Positions 527 to 6,350 of a stretch of 64,000 nt of DNA are shown here, one piece after another. Both the position numbers and the translations under genes were made by a program. The DNA comes from Escherichia phage LHE287, in sequence record PP761450.1. One strand, given 5' to 3'. The notes beneath the pieces are model-generated. The model was not told the origin of the DNA and ran no database searches. It saw only the letters and a program-made list of their open reading frames with translations. Within the stretch, counting starts at the first letter, position 1; each line of letters opens with the position of its first letter.

Positions 527-578
527 TTTCTCTTTGCCATGCCCTGTAATGCAGAGCCTGGCCGCGCGTCAGATAGAA

Positions 579-857
579 TTACTTGCCGTTGGCAGCGTTC
601 TTCAGACCTTCGCCCACTTTGAATTTCACAACGTTTTTCGCCGCGATCTGAATGGTCTGGCCGTTCAGAGGGTTGCGACCTTCACGCGCTTCTTGGTGTT
701 TAACTTCGAACGCACCGAAGCCAACCAGCTGTACAGATGCGCCTGCAGCAACTGCAGTTTTAACACCGTCGATAAAGGATGCCACTACTTTCTCCGCTTC
801 GCCTTTGGTGATATTCTGGGTCGAAGCAATGTGGGCAACAAATTCAGTACGATTCAT
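579..857 (-). CDS. HU/IHF-family histone-like DNA-binding protein
   Basis: 92 aa; strong resemblance to bacterial HU (VQLVGFGAFEV...REGRNPLNGQTIQIAAKNVVKFKVGEGLK); RBS GGAGA upstream. Confidence 0.85.
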   Translation of the reverse strand: MNRTEFVAHIASTQNITKGEAEKVVASFIDGVKTAVAAGASVQLVGFGAFEVKHQEAREGRNPLNGQTIQIAAKNVVKFKVGEGLKNAANGK

Positions 858-947
858 CTGGATTTCTCCGTTGGATTAATGTTTACTTTCATGTTCACTA
901 CAAGAGGACTACATCTTACCTAACAAAACATATTGAATAAAGCGAAA

Positions 948-1232
948 TTATTGGGTGTTTCCTTTAGAGATGAATGATTCCATGTCTGTCCGGGAAATAA
1001 TCGTTTCTACACGATCTTCATCGATCAACATTTCGTTCAGAAGATCGTACCCCAGGACTTGTACATCACGCACACCACAAGATCGTTTGTTCAGTTCTGC
1101 CTCAACATTGAGAACCCGCTGAACCGTCAGGCCACCAGAGGAGAACGGTACTGGATAGAAAGCAGAACACACTTGCGTGCTCCCATTTACGCTGTAACGA
1201 ACCAGCAAGACATCACACCATACACCAGCCAT
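948..1232 (-). CDS. hypothetical protein
   Basis: 94-aa ORF with ATG and GGAGG RBS. Confidence 0.5.
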   Translation of the reverse strand: MAGVWCDVLLVRYSVNGSTQVCSAFYPVPFSSGGLTVQRVLNVEAELNKRSCGVRDVQVLGYDLLNEMLIDEDRVETIISRTDMESFISKGNTQ

Positions 1233-2847: not shown

Positions 2848-3174
2848 TTAACCCGAAACTTTATTTTGAAATCCGACAAAGTCCTGGGCAATCCCCCGGC
2901 AATACATCAGGTCTTTCTTCGTTTGTGGACTGTTATCAGCCGCAGTCAGCATCATGGGAAGATCCAGCGCATTCTCTATCTGATCAACACTGAACAGATC
3001 AAGGCGCTTCAGCTCTCCCTCGAAGTCAGACAGTAGGATAGATGTGTCTTTGTCATCTGGGTGGAACTGCTGATACGTCTCCATCCATGCCACACATGTG
3101 TTCAGTTTGGACGGTGGTGCGGCGTTTACACACCCGGCTATCAGTACCAACAAGAGCAGGATTTTACATTTCAT
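2848..3174 (-). CDS. putative lipoprotein
   Basis: N-terminus MKCKILLLLVLIAGC: signal peptide with lipobox-like LIAGC. Confidence 0.5.
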   Translation of the reverse strand: MKCKILLLLVLIAGCVNAAPPSKLNTCVAWMETYQQFHPDDKDTSILLSDFEGELKRLDLFSVDQIENALDLPMMLTAADNSPQTKKDLMYCRGIAQDFVGFQNKVSG

Positions 3175-3860
3175 CACTCGTTCTCCTTCATCATATTGTC
3201 ACAGTCAACACGAGTCTGCTGGAGTTCGCGCGACATGCGAGGATCATCAAGGTTCACGCTCAGATTCGTGGCCAGGTCTTTCAGACCGTTCTGAACCCTG
3301 TCTTCAAAGTAATAATCGTTCTCAACCAGCCAGGCTCTGAGACCAAGAGCGCGGGTGCGCCATTCCTTCTTCAGGATGCGATCAGAGGTCTGCGTGGCGC
3401 TGTATTCGAATACTTTGACGCACTGGTTGCCATCGTTGATGAGGTTCAGGTGACGGCGGCCTATCTGCACACCCTTCTGTAATGCCGGAGAAGGGAGCGA
3501 ACGGCACTGTCTTACGGTCATTCGGCCTTGGGTGCCCATACGCCCAGTCATGATCAAATCGCCAGCCTCCATGCCTCCACGGTTAAATTCGTCGTCATTG
3601 AGGTAGCCTTTGAGGTTATAGGCTCCCTGTTTGTAACGGTTGAACTCAATTCCGGCATTGACGACAGCGGTGGAGACGTTGCCTGTGTTCCAGAGTTCAG
3701 CGAAGTTCTCTATGGAACCAGACTTGTCGATGGCAACCGCCTGGGAGAACCCAGCACAATAGGAAAGGTCGGACCACAGTTTATCACCTGTGGAGTTCAG
3801 CTTGGCAGCGGCGGGTAATGCCAGACCAGCCAGCACAACCCCGAGGATTAAACGTTTCAT
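3174..3860 (-). CDS. secreted protein (signal peptide)
   Basis: Internal start MKRLILGVVLAGLALPAAA at 3860 with AAGGAG RBS; the longer listed ORF has no RBS. Confidence 0.55.
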   Translation of the reverse strand: MKRLILGVVLAGLALPAAAKLNSTGDKLWSDLSYCAGFSQAVAIDKSGSIENFAELWNTGNVSTAVVNAGIEFNRYKQGAYNLKGYLNDDEFNRGGMEAGDLIMTGRMGTQGRMTVRQCRSLPSPALQKGVQIGRRHLNLINDGNQCVKVFEYSATQTSDRILKKEWRTRALGLRAWLVENDYYFEDRVQNGLKDLATNLSVNLDDPRMSRELQQTRVDCDNMMKENE

Positions 3861-3939
3861 GGCGATTCTCCTTATTTCATTGGATGAAATGATAGGCGGC
3901 TCACCATGATGAGTAAAGGGATTCAATAAACTATCGTAT

Positions 3940-4389
3940 TCAGAAACGGGTATCGCTGACCGTTCTGTATCGCACACCCTGAAACTGTTTAGCGAGTTTA
4001 ACAAATTCCATCGCTGGCAAATCAACTTTGTAGACCTTCATGCGCTGTTTGCCGTCCATGTTCAACGCAGCGACAAATCGGTGAGAACCGTCAACAACGT
4101 AATTGTCAGAAGATACCCAAACTCGACCCATAGGTTTCTTATTTCTGATCTGCTTCATAATCTTCCAGACCTTCATTTTATTGATTTCGTTCTGGGTAAG
4201 ACGAAGCGTTTTGATGGGCACTTGCGCAGCATCTATGGACACGCCGTTGTCTTCAAGATATTTGTGAAAATCTTCTTGTTTGTCGGCATCGATTTGCGGC
4301 ATAGAAGAACGAGAAAGCCCGAGGTTCCCAACAGGAATCCTCAGGCCGTTAATGATGTTCAACCAGTCAATAAAAGATGTAAGGAACAT
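3940..4389 (-). CDS. hypothetical protein
   Basis: 149-aa ORF, ATG with GAGGTG RBS. Confidence 0.5.
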   Translation of the reverse strand: MFLTSFIDWLNIINGLRIPVGNLGLSRSSMPQIDADKQEDFHKYLEDNGVSIDAAQVPIKTLRLTQNEINKMKVWKIMKQIRNKKPMGRVWVSSDNYVVDGSHRFVAALNMDGKQRMKVYKVDLPAMEFVKLAKQFQGVRYRTVSDTRF

Positions 4390-4421
4390 GACACACCTCG
4401 GGATATAGGGTTATCCCTTAG

Positions 4422-4622
4422 TTAGCGCATCCATCGATCCTTTCTCTCTTTCTCCTTGCGTTCGCGACGTTTCTGGTCGGATCGGAATAACCAATAGAAG
4501 AAGTTCCCACCCAAGATGAAAACCACCGCGATTATTACTAGGACACCCTTCACAATTTCCCAAACCAATTCTTTATCCAAATTATACCTCTTCTTCTTCT
4601 TCTTCTTCAGGTCCACCGTCAA
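4422..4622 (-). CDS. possible small membrane protein (no ATG start; TTG or GTG or frameshift product)
   Basis: ORF-track frame contains a hydrophobic helix VLVIIAVVFILGG and a basic tail; begins inside the (GAA)6 run of the upstream gene. Confidence 0.25.
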   Translation of the reverse strand: MTVDLKKKKKKRYNLDKELVWEIVKGVLVIIAVVFILGGNFFYWLFRSDQKRRERKEKERKDRWMR

Positions 4623-4878
4623 TCAGGATACGAGCGGCGTCGAAAGTTTCCCCGCCCGTGTTCAGCAGCTTGGTCAGATCGTCAAGATATCGGACCGTGC
4701 CAAGATCAGATGACCGCGATATGAACTCCAGCATACCATACAACGCTGTTTGGAATCGGCTGTTATCGATATCGTTCTTTATTACCATCAGGCGCAAGAT
4801 GTTCTCTGACTGAGTATGGCCAACACACGCCTTGTCTCTGATCATCTCCTTGATAGAACTTCTCTCTGATGGTGTCAT
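4582..4878 (-). CDS. hypothetical protein with C-terminal poly-Glu tail
   Basis: 98 aa ending EEEEEEEV, encoded by a (GAA)6 run; ATG with G-rich RBS. Confidence 0.45.
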   Translation of the reverse strand: MTPSERSSIKEMIRDKACVGHTQSENILRLMVIKNDIDNSRFQTALYGMLEFISRSSDLGTVRYLDDLTKLLNTGGETFDAARILIDGGPEEEEEEEV

Positions 4879-5249
4879 AACGTACCCCCGACAGAGATCA
4901 AGAACTCTTCTTGCATGGTCTTGACCGGGTGGTGGTTGCGGGTTTCGAACATGAAGCCCCAGCCACCGTCGGCGACGTTGCCAAAGGTCTTGACGCCAAA
5001 GGACTTCGTCCCGTTGGAGCAGGAATAGATGTCCAGGACGTATGGGCTACCCTGATTGTCGATCCCACGATTCACGTCGTCTGATACGCAGCGCTCAATC
5101 ATCTTCCCGTTCTTATACAGAACGAGGTCTTGGCCATACGCCTTGAAAGCATAAACACCGTTGGTAGACACTCCGGTGATGACAGGAGGGGCGGAAACAG
5201 CAGCAAAGGAAGCGCCCAGCAGGGCAACAGCGAGGATTAACTTTTTCAT
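4875..5249 (-). CDS. secreted protein (signal peptide)
   Basis: Start MKKLILAVALLGASFAAVSA at 5249. Confidence 0.5.
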   Translation of the reverse strand: MKKLILAVALLGASFAAVSAPPVITGVSTNGVYAFKAYGQDLVLYKNGKMIERCVSDDVNRGIDNQGSPYVLDIYSCSNGTKSFGVKTFGNVADGGWGFMFETRNHHPVKTMQEEFLISVGGTL

Positions 5250-5308
5250 GATATAGTCTCTTGGTTTCAAATAGACGGGGTAATCATACCCCGCCCAAAG
5301 TTATAGAA

Positions 5309-5548: not shown

Positions 5549-5599
5549 GATATAATCTTACCTTTCAACCCGGTGAACCCATCGTTCGCCAGTTATTGA

Positions 5600-5629
5600 A
5601 TAATACGCATTTACCTTATAGAAGTAAAC
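5600..5629 (-). promoter_or_regulatory. candidate sigma70/T4-early-type promoter (GTTTAC-N18-TATTAT)
   Basis: Minus-strand -35 GTTTAC (5624-5629) and -10 TATTAT (5600-5605), upstream of gene starting at 5548. Confidence 0.4.
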
Positions 5630-5640
5630 CCCTAAAAGTA

Positions 5641-5667
5641 AAAATCCCCAACAAACGTTGGGGATTT
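5641..5667 (-). terminator. rho-independent terminator
   Basis: ccccaac/gttgggg stem followed on the minus strand by TTTTTACTTTT; downstream of gene 5682..5906. Confidence 0.55.
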
Positions 5668-5681
5668 AATAAAAGTTATGC

Positions 5682-5906
5682 CTATTTAATTTCTCGGCTT
5701 GAATTTTCTAGTTCTAATTTTCTTATAGCGGAAATTCTGCCTTCATCAGTTGCGGGAAACTCCCAAACAGCACGACGCCCATTGTTGGTATCACAACTTG
5801 CCAGCCAGCAGAAATTAGAGGGGTCCTTAAACAAGACCAACTTCGGATTTCCTAAATTGATGAGGTTAAACGGGGTGAGGTCAACAACACATGATATAGC
5901 AGACAT
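5682..5906 (-). CDS. hypothetical small protein flanked by the two repeat copies
   Basis: 74-aa ORF, ATG with AGAAGG RBS. Confidence 0.4.
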   Translation of the reverse strand: MSAISCVVDLTPFNLINLGNPKLVLFKDPSNFCWLASCDTNNGRRAVWEFPATDEGRISAIRKLELENSSREIK

Positions 5907-5951: not shown

Positions 5952-6020
5952 TTCAATAATACGCATTTACCTTATAGAAGTAAACCCCTAAAAGTAAAAA
6001 TCCCCAACGTTTGTTGGGGA
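5952..6020. repeat. Direct repeat copy 2
   Basis: Same core as 5596..5667; the hairpin is present with its loop reverse-complemented. Confidence 0.7.
5956..5985 (-). promoter_or_regulatory. candidate sigma70/T4-early-type promoter (GTTTAC-N18-TATTAT)
   Basis: Same element as 5600..5629, upstream of gene starting at 5906. Confidence 0.4.
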
Positions 6021-6026: not shown

Positions 6027-6350
6027 TTATTTGCGCAGGGCAACCACGAGTTCAGCGAGTTCACCCATGGTCGGGTCGTCGCCTTTACTACCTAGCCACC
6101 CGTCGTCGATTTCGACCTGAAACTCTTCTTCGAGGTCCATTACAATTTCGATAGCGTCCAGTTCATCACCGCCGAGGTCTTTCTTGGTACGGAGGCCAGC
6201 CAGCTTGTCCAGGGCGTCCTCGTTCTGAGATGCCACGTCGTCCAGCAATTTGCGCTTGTCATCGTCACGCCACAGATCCATATTCAGATTGTCAGTGGCG
6301 TACTGAGCCAGATGACGCATGACTTCAACATATGTTGGCTTACTGCTCAT
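6027..6350 (-). CDS. acyl-carrier-protein-like protein (Ser-to-Glu at the phosphopantetheine site)
   Basis: KDLGGDELDAIEIVMDLEEEFQVEIDD aligns with E. coli ACP [27 protein letters not shown] (from memory); the conserved Ser is Glu here. Confidence 0.6.
   Translation of the reverse strand: MSSKPTYVEVMRHLAQYATDNLNMDLWRDDDKRKLLDDVASQNEDALDKLAGLRTKKDLGGDELDAIEIVMDLEEEFQVEIDDGWLGSKGDDPTMGELAELVVALRK

What the first reader, a model, noticed from the sequence alone, without database searches (positions are those of the whole stretch)
4582..4622. (GAA)6 run at the junction of two overlapping ORFs: possible frameshift or slippage site
The 98-aa gene ends in seven Glu encoded by GAAGAAGAAGAAGAAGAAGAG, and a second frame with no ATG opens inside this run, encoding a transmembrane helix and basic tail (ORF 4422..4622). 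A +1 shift within the repeat would fuse the two, yielding a membrane-anchored form. The trinucleotide repeat is also a candidate for length variation.
Basis: seen in the sequence. Interest (0 to 1): 0.4.

Follow-up and report, generated by a model that had tools for sequence, protein, structure and literature searches.

The report
Coupled phage genes, GAA tract expanded
The GAA run is a real three-codon expansion, seen only in this genome, in the acidic tail of a small phage protein; the "second frame" is the next gene, a conserved 52-residue membrane protein with its own ribosome-binding site and TTG start two bases after the stop, so nothing supports a frameshift.

Summary
The window is an Ackermannviridae (ViI-like, Agtrevirus-related) phage, and the genes lie on the minus strand. 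The (GAA)6 run (4608..4591) is real. It is the only trinucleotide repeat of 4 or more units in the 64 kb. The frameshift reading fails on comparison:
- All relatives carry GAA GAA GAC GAG GTR TRA (EEDEV*). This covers 39 GenBank records spanning the junction, 31 protein clusters, and metagenome and IMG/VR matches. The window alone has +9 nt plus a GAC>GAA change.
- The downstream ORF is a separately annotated 52-aa membrane-protein gene (4422..4580). It starts at a TTG 2 nt after the stop and is preceded by GAGGT (anti-SD pairing -7.1 kcal/mol). Hand-curated relatives mark that GAGGT as its RBS.
- The start at that position is TTG, GTG or ATG depending on lineage.
- The frame offset between the two genes varies (+1 or +2).
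- In some relatives an unrelated small gene occupies the slot.
- No fused homologue exists, and the junction RNA is unstructured.

Verdict: an ordinary, closely apposed and probably translationally coupled gene pair, plus a genome-specific in-frame microsatellite expansion in a disordered tail. Low interest. By-product: the small-gene slot is an exchangeable cassette flanked by two conserved junctions.

The parts
4582..4878 (-). 98-aa gene of unknown function (phrog_4458). It has a helical N-terminal part and a conserved C-terminal LLNTGGETFDxARILIDGGP motif, followed by an acidic tail.
   Evidence: ORF list. PHROG hit E=3e-36. 31 homologous clusters, 86-97 aa and almost all 95 aa. AF2 model: helices at pLDDT ~80, tail residues 88-98 coil at pLDDT ~40. 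No fold match.
4591..4608 (-). (GAA)6 tract: a genome-specific in-frame expansion. Relatives have GAA GAA GAC here, so the window has +9 nt and a GAC>GAA change.
   Evidence: Only SSR of >=4 trinucleotide units in the window. All 39 GenBank records spanning the junction are exactly 9 nt shorter. Flank-anchored pattern scans found only the 3-nt (GAC) allele.
4586..4590 (-). Shine-Dalgarno GAGGT for the downstream gene, embedded in the last codons (GAG GTA) of the upstream gene.
   Evidence: Anti-SD duplex -7.1 kcal/mol, in the top 4% of window 20-mers. Annotated as ribosome_binding_site in phages Maynard and Marshall. GAGGT is invariant in all 15 junctions.
4582..4584 (-). TAA stop codon of the 98-aa gene.
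4578..4580 (-). TTG start codon of the 52-aa membrane-protein gene, 2 nt after the stop.
   Evidence: Annotated start in AV101, Maynard, Marshall, AG3, RPN242, PC3 and S118. The homologous position is GTG in SeF3a. Other slot genes start with ATG at the same place.
4422..4580 (-). 52-aa single-pass membrane protein gene (phrog_14464): short N-terminus, one TM helix, highly basic C-tail (11 K/R, 5 D/E).
   Evidence: PHROG E=4e-22. Two protein clusters, both exactly 52 aa, on >=25 contigs. dN/dS ~0.04 with synonymous sites saturated against SeF3a and S118.
4394..4420 (-). Conserved right-hand junction of the variable slot (TAAGGGATAACCCTATATCCCGAGGTG). It contains a small hairpin and the SD of the next gene.
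   Evidence: Identical or nearly identical after all four kinds of slot gene in 12 genomes. Unique in the window. Fold z = -1.5.
3940..4389 (-). 149-aa gene that follows the slot (phrog_2859, weak ParB-like similarity). Its LIMEstone1 homologue is annotated 'confirmed structural protein'.
4875..5249 (-). Preceding 124-aa gene with an N-terminal signal-like sequence (phrog_5474). Its stop overlaps the ATG of the 98-aa gene (ATGA), so the genes form one tightly packed run.
   Evidence: No promoter-like or convincing terminator-like site between genes in 4380-5300.

Best explanation
There are two separate, adjacent genes in one operon of an Ackermannviridae phage. The 98-aa protein terminates at TAA 4584..4582. 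Ribosomes start the next gene at TTG 4580..4578, using the GAGGT Shine-Dalgarno that lies inside the last two sense codons of the upstream gene. They do this either de novo or, more likely, by termination-reinitiation (translational coupling). That next gene encodes a conserved 52-aa single-pass membrane protein. The apparent overlap (ORF 4422..4622) exists only because the +1 frame happens to stay open for 14 codons upstream of the true start. The (GAA)6 run is a recent replication-slippage expansion of the ancestral GAA GAA GAC: a GAC>GAA change, then +3 units. It adds three Glu to a disordered acidic tail. It keeps the reading frame of the upstream gene and the SD-to-start spacing of the downstream gene, so it is probably neutral or nearly so.

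Shown: the anatomy, the conservation pattern, the SD strength, selection on the 52-aa ORF, and the uniqueness of the expansion.

Inferred: coupling as the mode of initiation, and neutrality of the expansion.
For: - Independent annotators call a 159-nt gene starting 2 nt after the stop. Maynard and Marshall mark GAGG(T) as its RBS.
- The anti-SD duplex is -7.1 kcal/mol before TTG 4580. It is +0.4 before TTG 4622 and +0.6 before GTG 4616, the mechanical upstream starts.
- The start codon at the homologous position is TTG, GTG or ATG across lineages, always 0-3 nt from the stop and after an invariant GAGGT.
- The 52-aa ORF is under strong purifying selection from codon 2 onward (dN/dS ~0.04).
- Both of its protein clusters are exactly 52 aa.
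- All 31 homologue clusters of the upstream protein are 86-97 aa and, apart from the truncated 86-aa P0021, end in EEDEV or a one-residue variant.
- All 39 GenBank records spanning the junction are 9 nt shorter. Flank-anchored scans of metagenomes and IMG/VR found only the short allele.
- The tail is predicted to be disordered.
- There are no promoters or terminators between the genes.
Against: - There are no expression data. TTG is a weak start codon, so the actual initiation efficiency and its dependence on upstream translation are unmeasured.
- The expanded allele rests on a single assembled sequence, and I could not inspect reads.
- A purine-rich 22-nt tract just upstream of an SD could change downstream translation somewhat, so strict neutrality is unproven.
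Confidence: 0.9

Rival explanations
1. Programmed +1 ribosomal frameshifting in or just after the (GAA)6 run fuses the 98-aa protein to the TM helix, giving a minor membrane-anchored isoform.
For: The geometry is right. The downstream gene is in the +1 frame, that frame is open for 14 codons upstream of its start, and a simulated shift gives a 150-aa fusion. An SD-like GAGG and a stop codon lie at the end of the run, which superficially recalls prfB.
Against: - The run is absent in every relative.
- The frame offset is +1 in some lineages and +2 in others for the same 52-aa gene. In S118 the frame is closed 3 codons upstream.
- The downstream gene is replaced by unrelated genes in MK-13, SW16-7 and LIMEstone1 while the upstream gene is retained.
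- There are no fused homologues.
- There is no downstream RNA structure (z = +1.1).
- Inference from codon-anticodon rules: tRNA-Glu cannot re-pair GAA>AAG at the first codon position, GAA is a fast codon so there is no pause, and GUA>UAU re-pairing at the stop is also poor. The GAGG abuts the last sense codon instead of sitting ~3 nt upstream as in prfB.
- A Lys-rich linker N-terminal to a helix with a basic C-tail would put positive charge on both sides of the membrane (inference).
Confidence: 0.03
2. The downstream gene really starts at TTG 4622 or GTG 4616. It would then be a 64-66-aa protein with an N-terminal Lys6 stretch, overlapping the upstream gene by ~40 nt.
For: The mechanical ORF starts there. 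One GenBank record (SeF3a) annotates an upstream start for its orthologue, 186 nt long.
Against: - There is no SD before either codon (+0.4 and +0.6 kcal/mol).
- In S118 the frame is closed 3 codons upstream of the TTG.
- Both protein clusters are 52 aa.
- The extension sequence is only the +1 reading of the conserved upstream tail.
Confidence: 0.03
3. The GAA tract is a functional contingency or tuning element. Its length changes would modulate the acidic tail's function, or translation of the downstream membrane protein through the purine-rich leader.
For: It is a clear SSR outlier in the window. Length differs from all relatives by whole units, and one lineage has -1 codon. The tract lies directly 5' of the downstream SD.
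Against: - Only one expanded allele is known, and dozens of genomes from four genera are fixed at EEDEV. That is the opposite of a hypermutable locus.
- With a 3-nt unit no on/off switching is possible.
- Six units is short for high slippage rates (general knowledge).
Confidence: 0.05
4. The extra nine bases are an assembly or sequencing artefact, and the true sequence is the canonical GAA GAA GAC GAG.
For: The allele is unique among all searchable sequences.
Against: - An artefact would have to add exactly 9 nt and also change C>A.
- Trinucleotide tracts of 18 nt are not a typical error context for current platforms (general knowledge).
- The flanks carry other private substitutions relative to the nearest relatives (~98% identity), so a private allele is unsurprising.
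Confidence: 0.04

Closest known systems
Translationally coupled adjacent genes with the SD inside the upstream coding end (for example the E. coli trpB-trpA and trpE-trpD UGAUG junctions, and many phage operons). From general knowledge.
   Same: The stop and start are 0-3 nt apart. A strong SD (GAGGT) lies in the last codons of the upstream gene. There is no intergenic promoter or terminator. The start position is conserved across lineages.
   Different: The start codon here is the weak TTG. Dependence of downstream translation on upstream termination has not been measured.
prfB (RF2) programmed +1 frameshift: CUU UGA C with an SD-like element 3 nt upstream. From general knowledge.
   Same: An SD-like GAGG, a stop codon and a +1-frame continuation all occur within a few nucleotides.
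   Different: No P-site codon here can re-pair in +1. The SD spacing is wrong. The downstream ORF has its own start. The site and the frame relation are not conserved.
Phage tail-assembly-chaperone -1 frameshift (lambda G/GT type, XXXYYYZ heptamer). From general knowledge.
   Same: It is a phage system with two overlapping frames that could give a short and a long product.
   Different: The direction is wrong (+1, not -1). There is no slippery heptamer. The genes are not in the tail module. The overlap is not conserved.
Simple-sequence-repeat contingency loci, including the GAA-repeat control of vlhA (pMGA) expression in Mycoplasma gallisepticum. From general knowledge.
   Same: It is a GAA trinucleotide tract whose copy number has changed by slippage.
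   Different: The tract is coding and in frame, only 6 units long, and fixed at the short form in all other genomes. There is no evidence of switching.
Annotated orthologues: Maynard_91/Maynard_92, phiSboM-AG3 gp122/gp121, and AV101 WJJ54086/WJJ54085.
   Same: They have the same two genes, the same junction and the same TTG start, and the 52-aa protein is 100% identical.
   Different: Their upstream protein has the EEDEV tail (95 aa) instead of EEEEEEEV (98 aa).

Membership tests
Programmed +1 ribosomal frameshift site (prfB-like) | A P-site codon whose tRNA can re-pair in the +1 frame. | tested here: not met
   Read from the sequence. GAA>AAG and GUA>UAU both lose the first-position pair. The pairing rules are from established knowledge, so this step is inference.
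Programmed +1 ribosomal frameshift site (prfB-like) | A slow A-site codon or stop at the shift site, plus a stimulator (an SD ~3 nt upstream, or a downstream structure). | tested here: not met
   Within the run the A-site codon is always GAA or GAG. A stop follows GUA, but the GAGG overlaps that codon, so there is no 3-nt spacing. The junction RNA folds no better than shuffles (z = +1.1).
Programmed +1 ribosomal frameshift site (prfB-like) | The site and the frame relation are conserved among homologues. | tested here: not met
   The run is absent in all relatives. The offset is +1 in the window, SeF3a and SW16-7, and +2 in S118, MK-13 and LIMEstone1.
Programmed +1 ribosomal frameshift site (prfB-like) | The downstream ORF lacks its own initiation site. 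| tested here: not met
   GAGGT plus TTG/GTG/ATG is present in every lineage, with an anti-SD duplex of -7.1 kcal/mol. It is annotated as an RBS.
Programmed +1 ribosomal frameshift site (prfB-like) | A trans-frame protein product is detected. | not testable with these tools
   This needs MS, Ribo-seq or a reporter assay.
Translationally coupled gene pair | The stop of the upstream gene and the start of the downstream gene lie within a few nucleotides of each other. | tested here: met
   TAA 4584..4582 and TTG 4580..4578. The distance is 0-3 nt in all 15 junctions.
Translationally coupled gene pair | An SD for the downstream gene lies inside the upstream coding sequence at functional spacing. 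| tested here: met
   GAGGT 4590..4586, 5-6 nt before the TTG, with a duplex of -7.1 kcal/mol.
Translationally coupled gene pair | The two genes are co-transcribed. | tested here: inconclusive
   Consensus scans found no promoter-like or intergenic terminator-like site between the genes. Such scans are weak evidence, and no RNA data are available.
Translationally coupled gene pair | Downstream translation depends on upstream translation reaching the stop. | not testable with these tools
   This needs a premature-stop mutant in the 98-aa gene together with a reporter.
SSR contingency (phase-variable) locus | A change in repeat-unit number switches the frame or the promoter spacing. | tested here: not met
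   The unit is 3 nt and in frame. The SD-to-start spacing is unaffected because the tract lies 5' of the SD.
SSR contingency (phase-variable) locus | Frequent length polymorphism among closely related genomes. | tested here: not met
   All 39 GenBank junctions and all 31 protein clusters carry the short form, except this genome (+3 codons) and P0027 (-1 codon).
phrog_14464 small membrane protein | Sequence match to the family profile and a single TM helix. | tested here: met
E = 3.8e-22. The protein is 100% identical to Maynard_92.

The most novel reading that the evidence does not exclude
In this one phage, the newly expanded 22-nt purine tract ending in GAGG-GUA-UAA may have created a low-efficiency +1 (or -2) recoding site de novo. 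A small fraction of ribosomes would then make a 150-aa fusion of the 98-aa protein to the membrane helix. That would be a snapshot of a recoding signal arising from microsatellite expansion. Nothing here measures translation, so a low level of shifting cannot be formally excluded.
Probability: 0.03. Interest if true: 0.5.

Novelty: already known. Interest (0 to 1): 0.1.

Why it matters
As a frameshift candidate it does not matter much. The two ORFs are already annotated as separate genes in related phages, with the RBS marked. The work has three practical results.
1. The 52-aa TTG-initiated membrane-protein gene should be annotated in this genome at 4422..4580(-). The mechanical 66-aa ORF should not be used, and the gene should not be omitted, as it is in pertopsoe.
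2. The (GAA)6 tract is a private in-frame allele that can serve as a strain marker.
3. The position after the conserved GAGGTR-TRA junction is a swap slot. In different Ackermannviridae it holds four unrelated tiny genes, most of them membrane proteins, two genes upstream of the spanins. That slot is the more interesting lead for anyone studying small phage membrane proteins.

Tried and rejected
- Exact look-up of the 98-aa product in the 153-billion-gene index: not on record.
- Searches of E. coli complete genomes and of plasmids for the junction: no match.
- Genome-contig scan with the flank-anchored pattern: 0 hits.
- IMG/VR scans: only 3 related contigs, all with the short allele.
- Pfam: nothing above threshold for either protein. 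A Phage_holin_2_4 hit to the 52-aa protein had E = 0.04 and 14 bits against a cut-off of 30, so I rejected it as evidence for a holin.
- AF2 model of the 98-aa protein: mean pLDDT 64. Foldseek against the PDB gave no match with E < 4, so there is no functional inference.
- RNA fold of the junction: no structure, so no frameshift stimulator and no occluding hairpin to argue for obligatory coupling.
- Literature search (Ackermannviridae, holin, spanin) and the SeF3a paper: nothing on these two genes.
- Transcriptional slippage was considered and rejected. The tract is not a homopolymer, and slippage by one repeat unit keeps the frame.

Full report
**What the sequence shows.** The genes in this part of the window lie on the minus strand. 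The 98-aa ORF (4582..4878) ends ...ILIDGGP-EEEEEEE-V*. The codons are GAA x6 (4608..4591), GAG (4590..4588), GTA (4587..4585) and TAA (4584..4582). In the +1 frame a mechanical ORF runs from TTG 4622 to 4422 (66 aa) and reads the run as Lys6.
- The protein ends in Val, not Glu.
- The second frame opens upstream of the run, not inside it.
- The absence of an ATG overlooks a TTG at 4580..4578, two bases after the stop.

The repeat is not a chance feature. It is the only trinucleotide repeat of four or more units in the 64 kb. In 300 shuffles the mean count was 0.16 for >=4 units and zero for >=5.

**Where the window comes from.** The region is 97-98% identical to Escherichia phages vB_EcoM-RPN242, AV101 and PC3/PH4, and 83-90% identical to other Ackermannviridae such as Shigella phage AG3 and Salmonella phages Maynard, Marshall and pertopsoe. 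In total 274 phage records match.

**How relatives annotate the junction.** Independent annotators call two separate genes: a 288-nt (95-aa) gene, and a 159-nt (52-aa) 'membrane protein' that starts 2 nt after the stop.
- AV101, AG3, RPN242, PC3 and S118 all carry this call.
- The hand-curated Maynard and Marshall records also annotate the GAGG(T) inside the upstream gene's last codons as the ribosome-binding site of the membrane-protein gene.
- In window coordinates this gene is 4422..4580(-), starting at TTG 4580.

**The repeat is private to this genome.**
- In 14 GenBank junctions read base by base, 12 tails are GAA GAA GAC GAG GTR TRA (EEDEV*). SeF3a has NKEEV* and S118 has NNDEV*, each the same length as EEDEV*. 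The window differs by +9 nt and a GAC>GAA change.
- All 39 GenBank records whose match spans the junction are exactly 9 nt shorter than the window.
- In the 5.8-billion-cluster protein collection, the 31 homologous clusters are 86-97 aa, almost all 95. Apart from the truncated 86-aa P0021, they end in EEDEV or a single-residue variant. One has EEEV at 94 aa, and none has an expanded Glu run.
- A pattern anchored on both flanks, allowing 0-30 nt between them, found one metagenome contig and one IMG/VR contig, both with the 3-nt (GAC) form. It found nothing in 185,579 species genomes.
- The exact 98-aa product is not on record.
- E. coli complete genomes and plasmids have no match.
- In the AF2 model the tail is unstructured: residues 88-98 are coil at pLDDT ~40. 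That fits tolerance of three extra Glu.

**The downstream ORF is an independent gene.**
- Anti-SD pairing is -7.1 kcal/mol upstream of TTG 4580, in the top 4% of 20-mers on this strand. It is +0.4 and +0.6 kcal/mol upstream of the mechanical starts TTG 4622 and GTG 4616.
- At the homologous position the start codon is TTG in the window group and S118, and GTG in SeF3a. Other genes in the same slot use ATG (SW16-7, SKML-39, MK-13 type, LIMEstone1). It is always 0-3 nt from the stop and after an invariant GAGGT.
- The 52-aa ORF is under strong purifying selection. Against SeF3a there are 22 of 31 synonymous sites changed and 10 of 122 non-synonymous sites changed (dN/dS ~0.04). Against S118 the synonymous sites are saturated.
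- Both protein clusters of this family are exactly 52 aa and are seen on 25 or more contigs.
- The protein has a 12-residue N-terminus, one hydrophobic helix and a very basic 20-residue tail with 11 K/R.

**Tests that bear directly on a frameshift fusion.**

| Test | Result |
|---|---|
| Frame relation conserved? | No. Offset is +1 in the window group, SeF3a, SW16-7 and SKML-39. It is +2 in S118 (same 52-aa gene), MK-13, SNUABM-02, ChubbyThor and LIMEstone1. In S118 the downstream frame is closed three codons upstream of the start. |
| Genes inherited together? | No. Maynard shares a ~100% identical membrane gene but a 53-85% identical upstream gene. MK-13 shares an 85-100% identical upstream gene but has a different gene in the slot. 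|
| Any fused homologue? | None in either family. |
| Stimulatory RNA structure? | None. MFE -18.6 against a shuffle mean of -22.2 kcal/mol, z = +1.1. |

From standard decoding rules (inference), tRNA-Glu cannot re-pair from GAA to AAG at the first codon position. GAA is a fast, abundant codon, so there is no pause. The GAGG abuts the last sense codon rather than sitting about 3 nt upstream as in prfB. Slippage of RNA or DNA polymerase by a whole 3-nt unit would not change the frame. The geometry alone is correct: a simulated +1 shift gives a 150-aa fusion.

**Best explanation.** This is an ordinary, tightly packed pair of genes. The downstream gene is initiated at TTG 4580 from an SD embedded in the upstream gene's 3' end, probably by termination-reinitiation coupling. 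On top of that there is a recent in-frame microsatellite expansion, GAA GAA GAC > (GAA)6, in a disordered acidic tail. The expansion preserves both the upstream frame and the SD-to-start spacing. I put this at about 0.9. The rivals are:
- a real +1 recoding event (0.03);
- a longer overlapping gene starting at 4622 or 4616 (0.03);
- a functional tuning or contingency repeat (0.05);
- an assembly artefact (0.04).

**Context and function.** The operon runs, on the minus strand:
- an acyl-carrier-protein gene (6027..6350);
- a 79-aa gene;
- a 124-aa signal-sequence protein;
- the 98-aa gene;
- the 52-aa membrane gene;
- a 149-aa gene with weak ParB-like similarity, whose LIMEstone1 homologue is annotated 'confirmed structural protein';
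- an i-spanin (3174..3860);
- an Rz-like o-spanin (2848..3177).

Neither the 98-aa nor the 52-aa protein has a known function. There is no Pfam hit above threshold. A weak holin-family hit (E = 0.04) is not significant. The structure model found no fold match.

**By-product.** The position after the 95/98-aa gene behaves as an exchangeable cassette.
- Its left border is the conserved ...GGTGGACCTGAAGAAGACGAGGTRTRA.
- Its right border is the conserved CTAACTAAGGGATAAYCC(T)ATATCCCGAGGTG...ATG (window 4394..4420).
- Between them, different phages carry four unrelated small genes:
  - the 52-aa type;
  - a 36/37-aa TM type (MK-13, SNUABM-02, ChubbyThor);
  - a 26-28-aa TM type (SW16-7, SKML-39);
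  - an 80-aa soluble type (LIMEstone1).
- No gene is annotated in this slot in the MK-13, SNUABM-02, SW16-7 and SKML-39 records. ChubbyThor annotates only a 54-nt CDS there.

**Verdict.** The frameshift interpretation is not supported. The 'length variation' remark holds only in the sense that this genome carries a unique in-frame expansion. Interest is 0.1, and the kind of feature is already known.

Noticed in passing
window 4394..4584 (-); loci L011-L016 (MK-13, SW16-7, SNUABM-02, SKML-39, ChubbyThor, LIMEstone1): The slot between the 95/98-aa gene and the 149-aa gene is an exchangeable cassette with two conserved borders. The left border is GACGAGGTRTRA and the right border is CTAACTAAGGGATAAYCC(T)ATATCCCGAGGTG. 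Across Ackermannviridae it holds four unrelated small genes: 52-aa TM, 36/37-aa TM, 26-28-aa TM and 80-aa soluble. Each starts 0-3 nt after the upstream stop.
   Followed up: partly
L011 ~830-940, L013 ~828-940, L012 ~832-918, L014 ~830-910: Small TM ORFs of 26-37 aa, ATG-initiated and conserved between phages with amino-acid substitutions, are not annotated in the GenBank records of MK-13, pSal-SNUABM-02, SW16-7 and SKML-39. The orthologous 52-aa gene is likewise unannotated in pertopsoe.
   Followed up: partly
window 4394..4420 (-): There is a conserved ~27-nt intergenic motif with a 6-bp hairpin (GGGATA/TATCCC) directly before the SD of the 149-aa gene. It is kept from Kuttervirus to Limestonevirus although the flanking coding DNA diverges. 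It is unique in the window, and its fold z-score is only -1.5.
   Followed up: partly
window 3900..5300: The mosaic is strong, with breakpoints at or near gene boundaries. Against Maynard the 124-aa gene and the TM gene are ~100% identical, but the 98-aa gene is 53-85% and the 149-aa gene 60-90%. Against SeF3a and S118 the pattern is reversed, with the 149-aa gene at 92-100%.
   Followed up: partly
window ~5598..5667 (-) and ~5955..6020 (-): A ~65-nt module is duplicated. It is a terminator-like hairpin (AAATCCCCAACGTTTGTTGGGGATTT, then a T-run) followed by a promoter-like TTTACT-17-TATTAT. The two copies flank a 74-aa ORF (5682..5906).
   Followed up: no
window 2848..3860 (-): A spanin pair lies two genes downstream. 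The i-spanin-like 228-aa gene is 3174..3860 (annotated i-spanin in Marshall and pertopsoe). The Rz-like o-spanin is 2848..3177 (phrog_3843, lipobox LIAGC) and overlaps it by 4 nt. No holin is annotated nearby.
   Followed up: partly
L021 (FrontPhageNews) 539..754; P0021: Two relatives have a truncated or frameshifted upstream gene. FrontPhageNews has 71 aa, and its match is 1 nt shorter than those of its close relatives. Cluster P0021 is 86 aa and ends ...ETFRRRSYPD. These are either sequencing errors or natural loss-of-function alleles of the 95-aa gene.
   Followed up: no
L017 (SeF3a) 801..986: Start calls for the membrane-protein gene are inconsistent between records. SeF3a annotates a 186-nt version that starts 26 nt inside the upstream gene, whereas most records use the 159-nt version.
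   Followed up: yes
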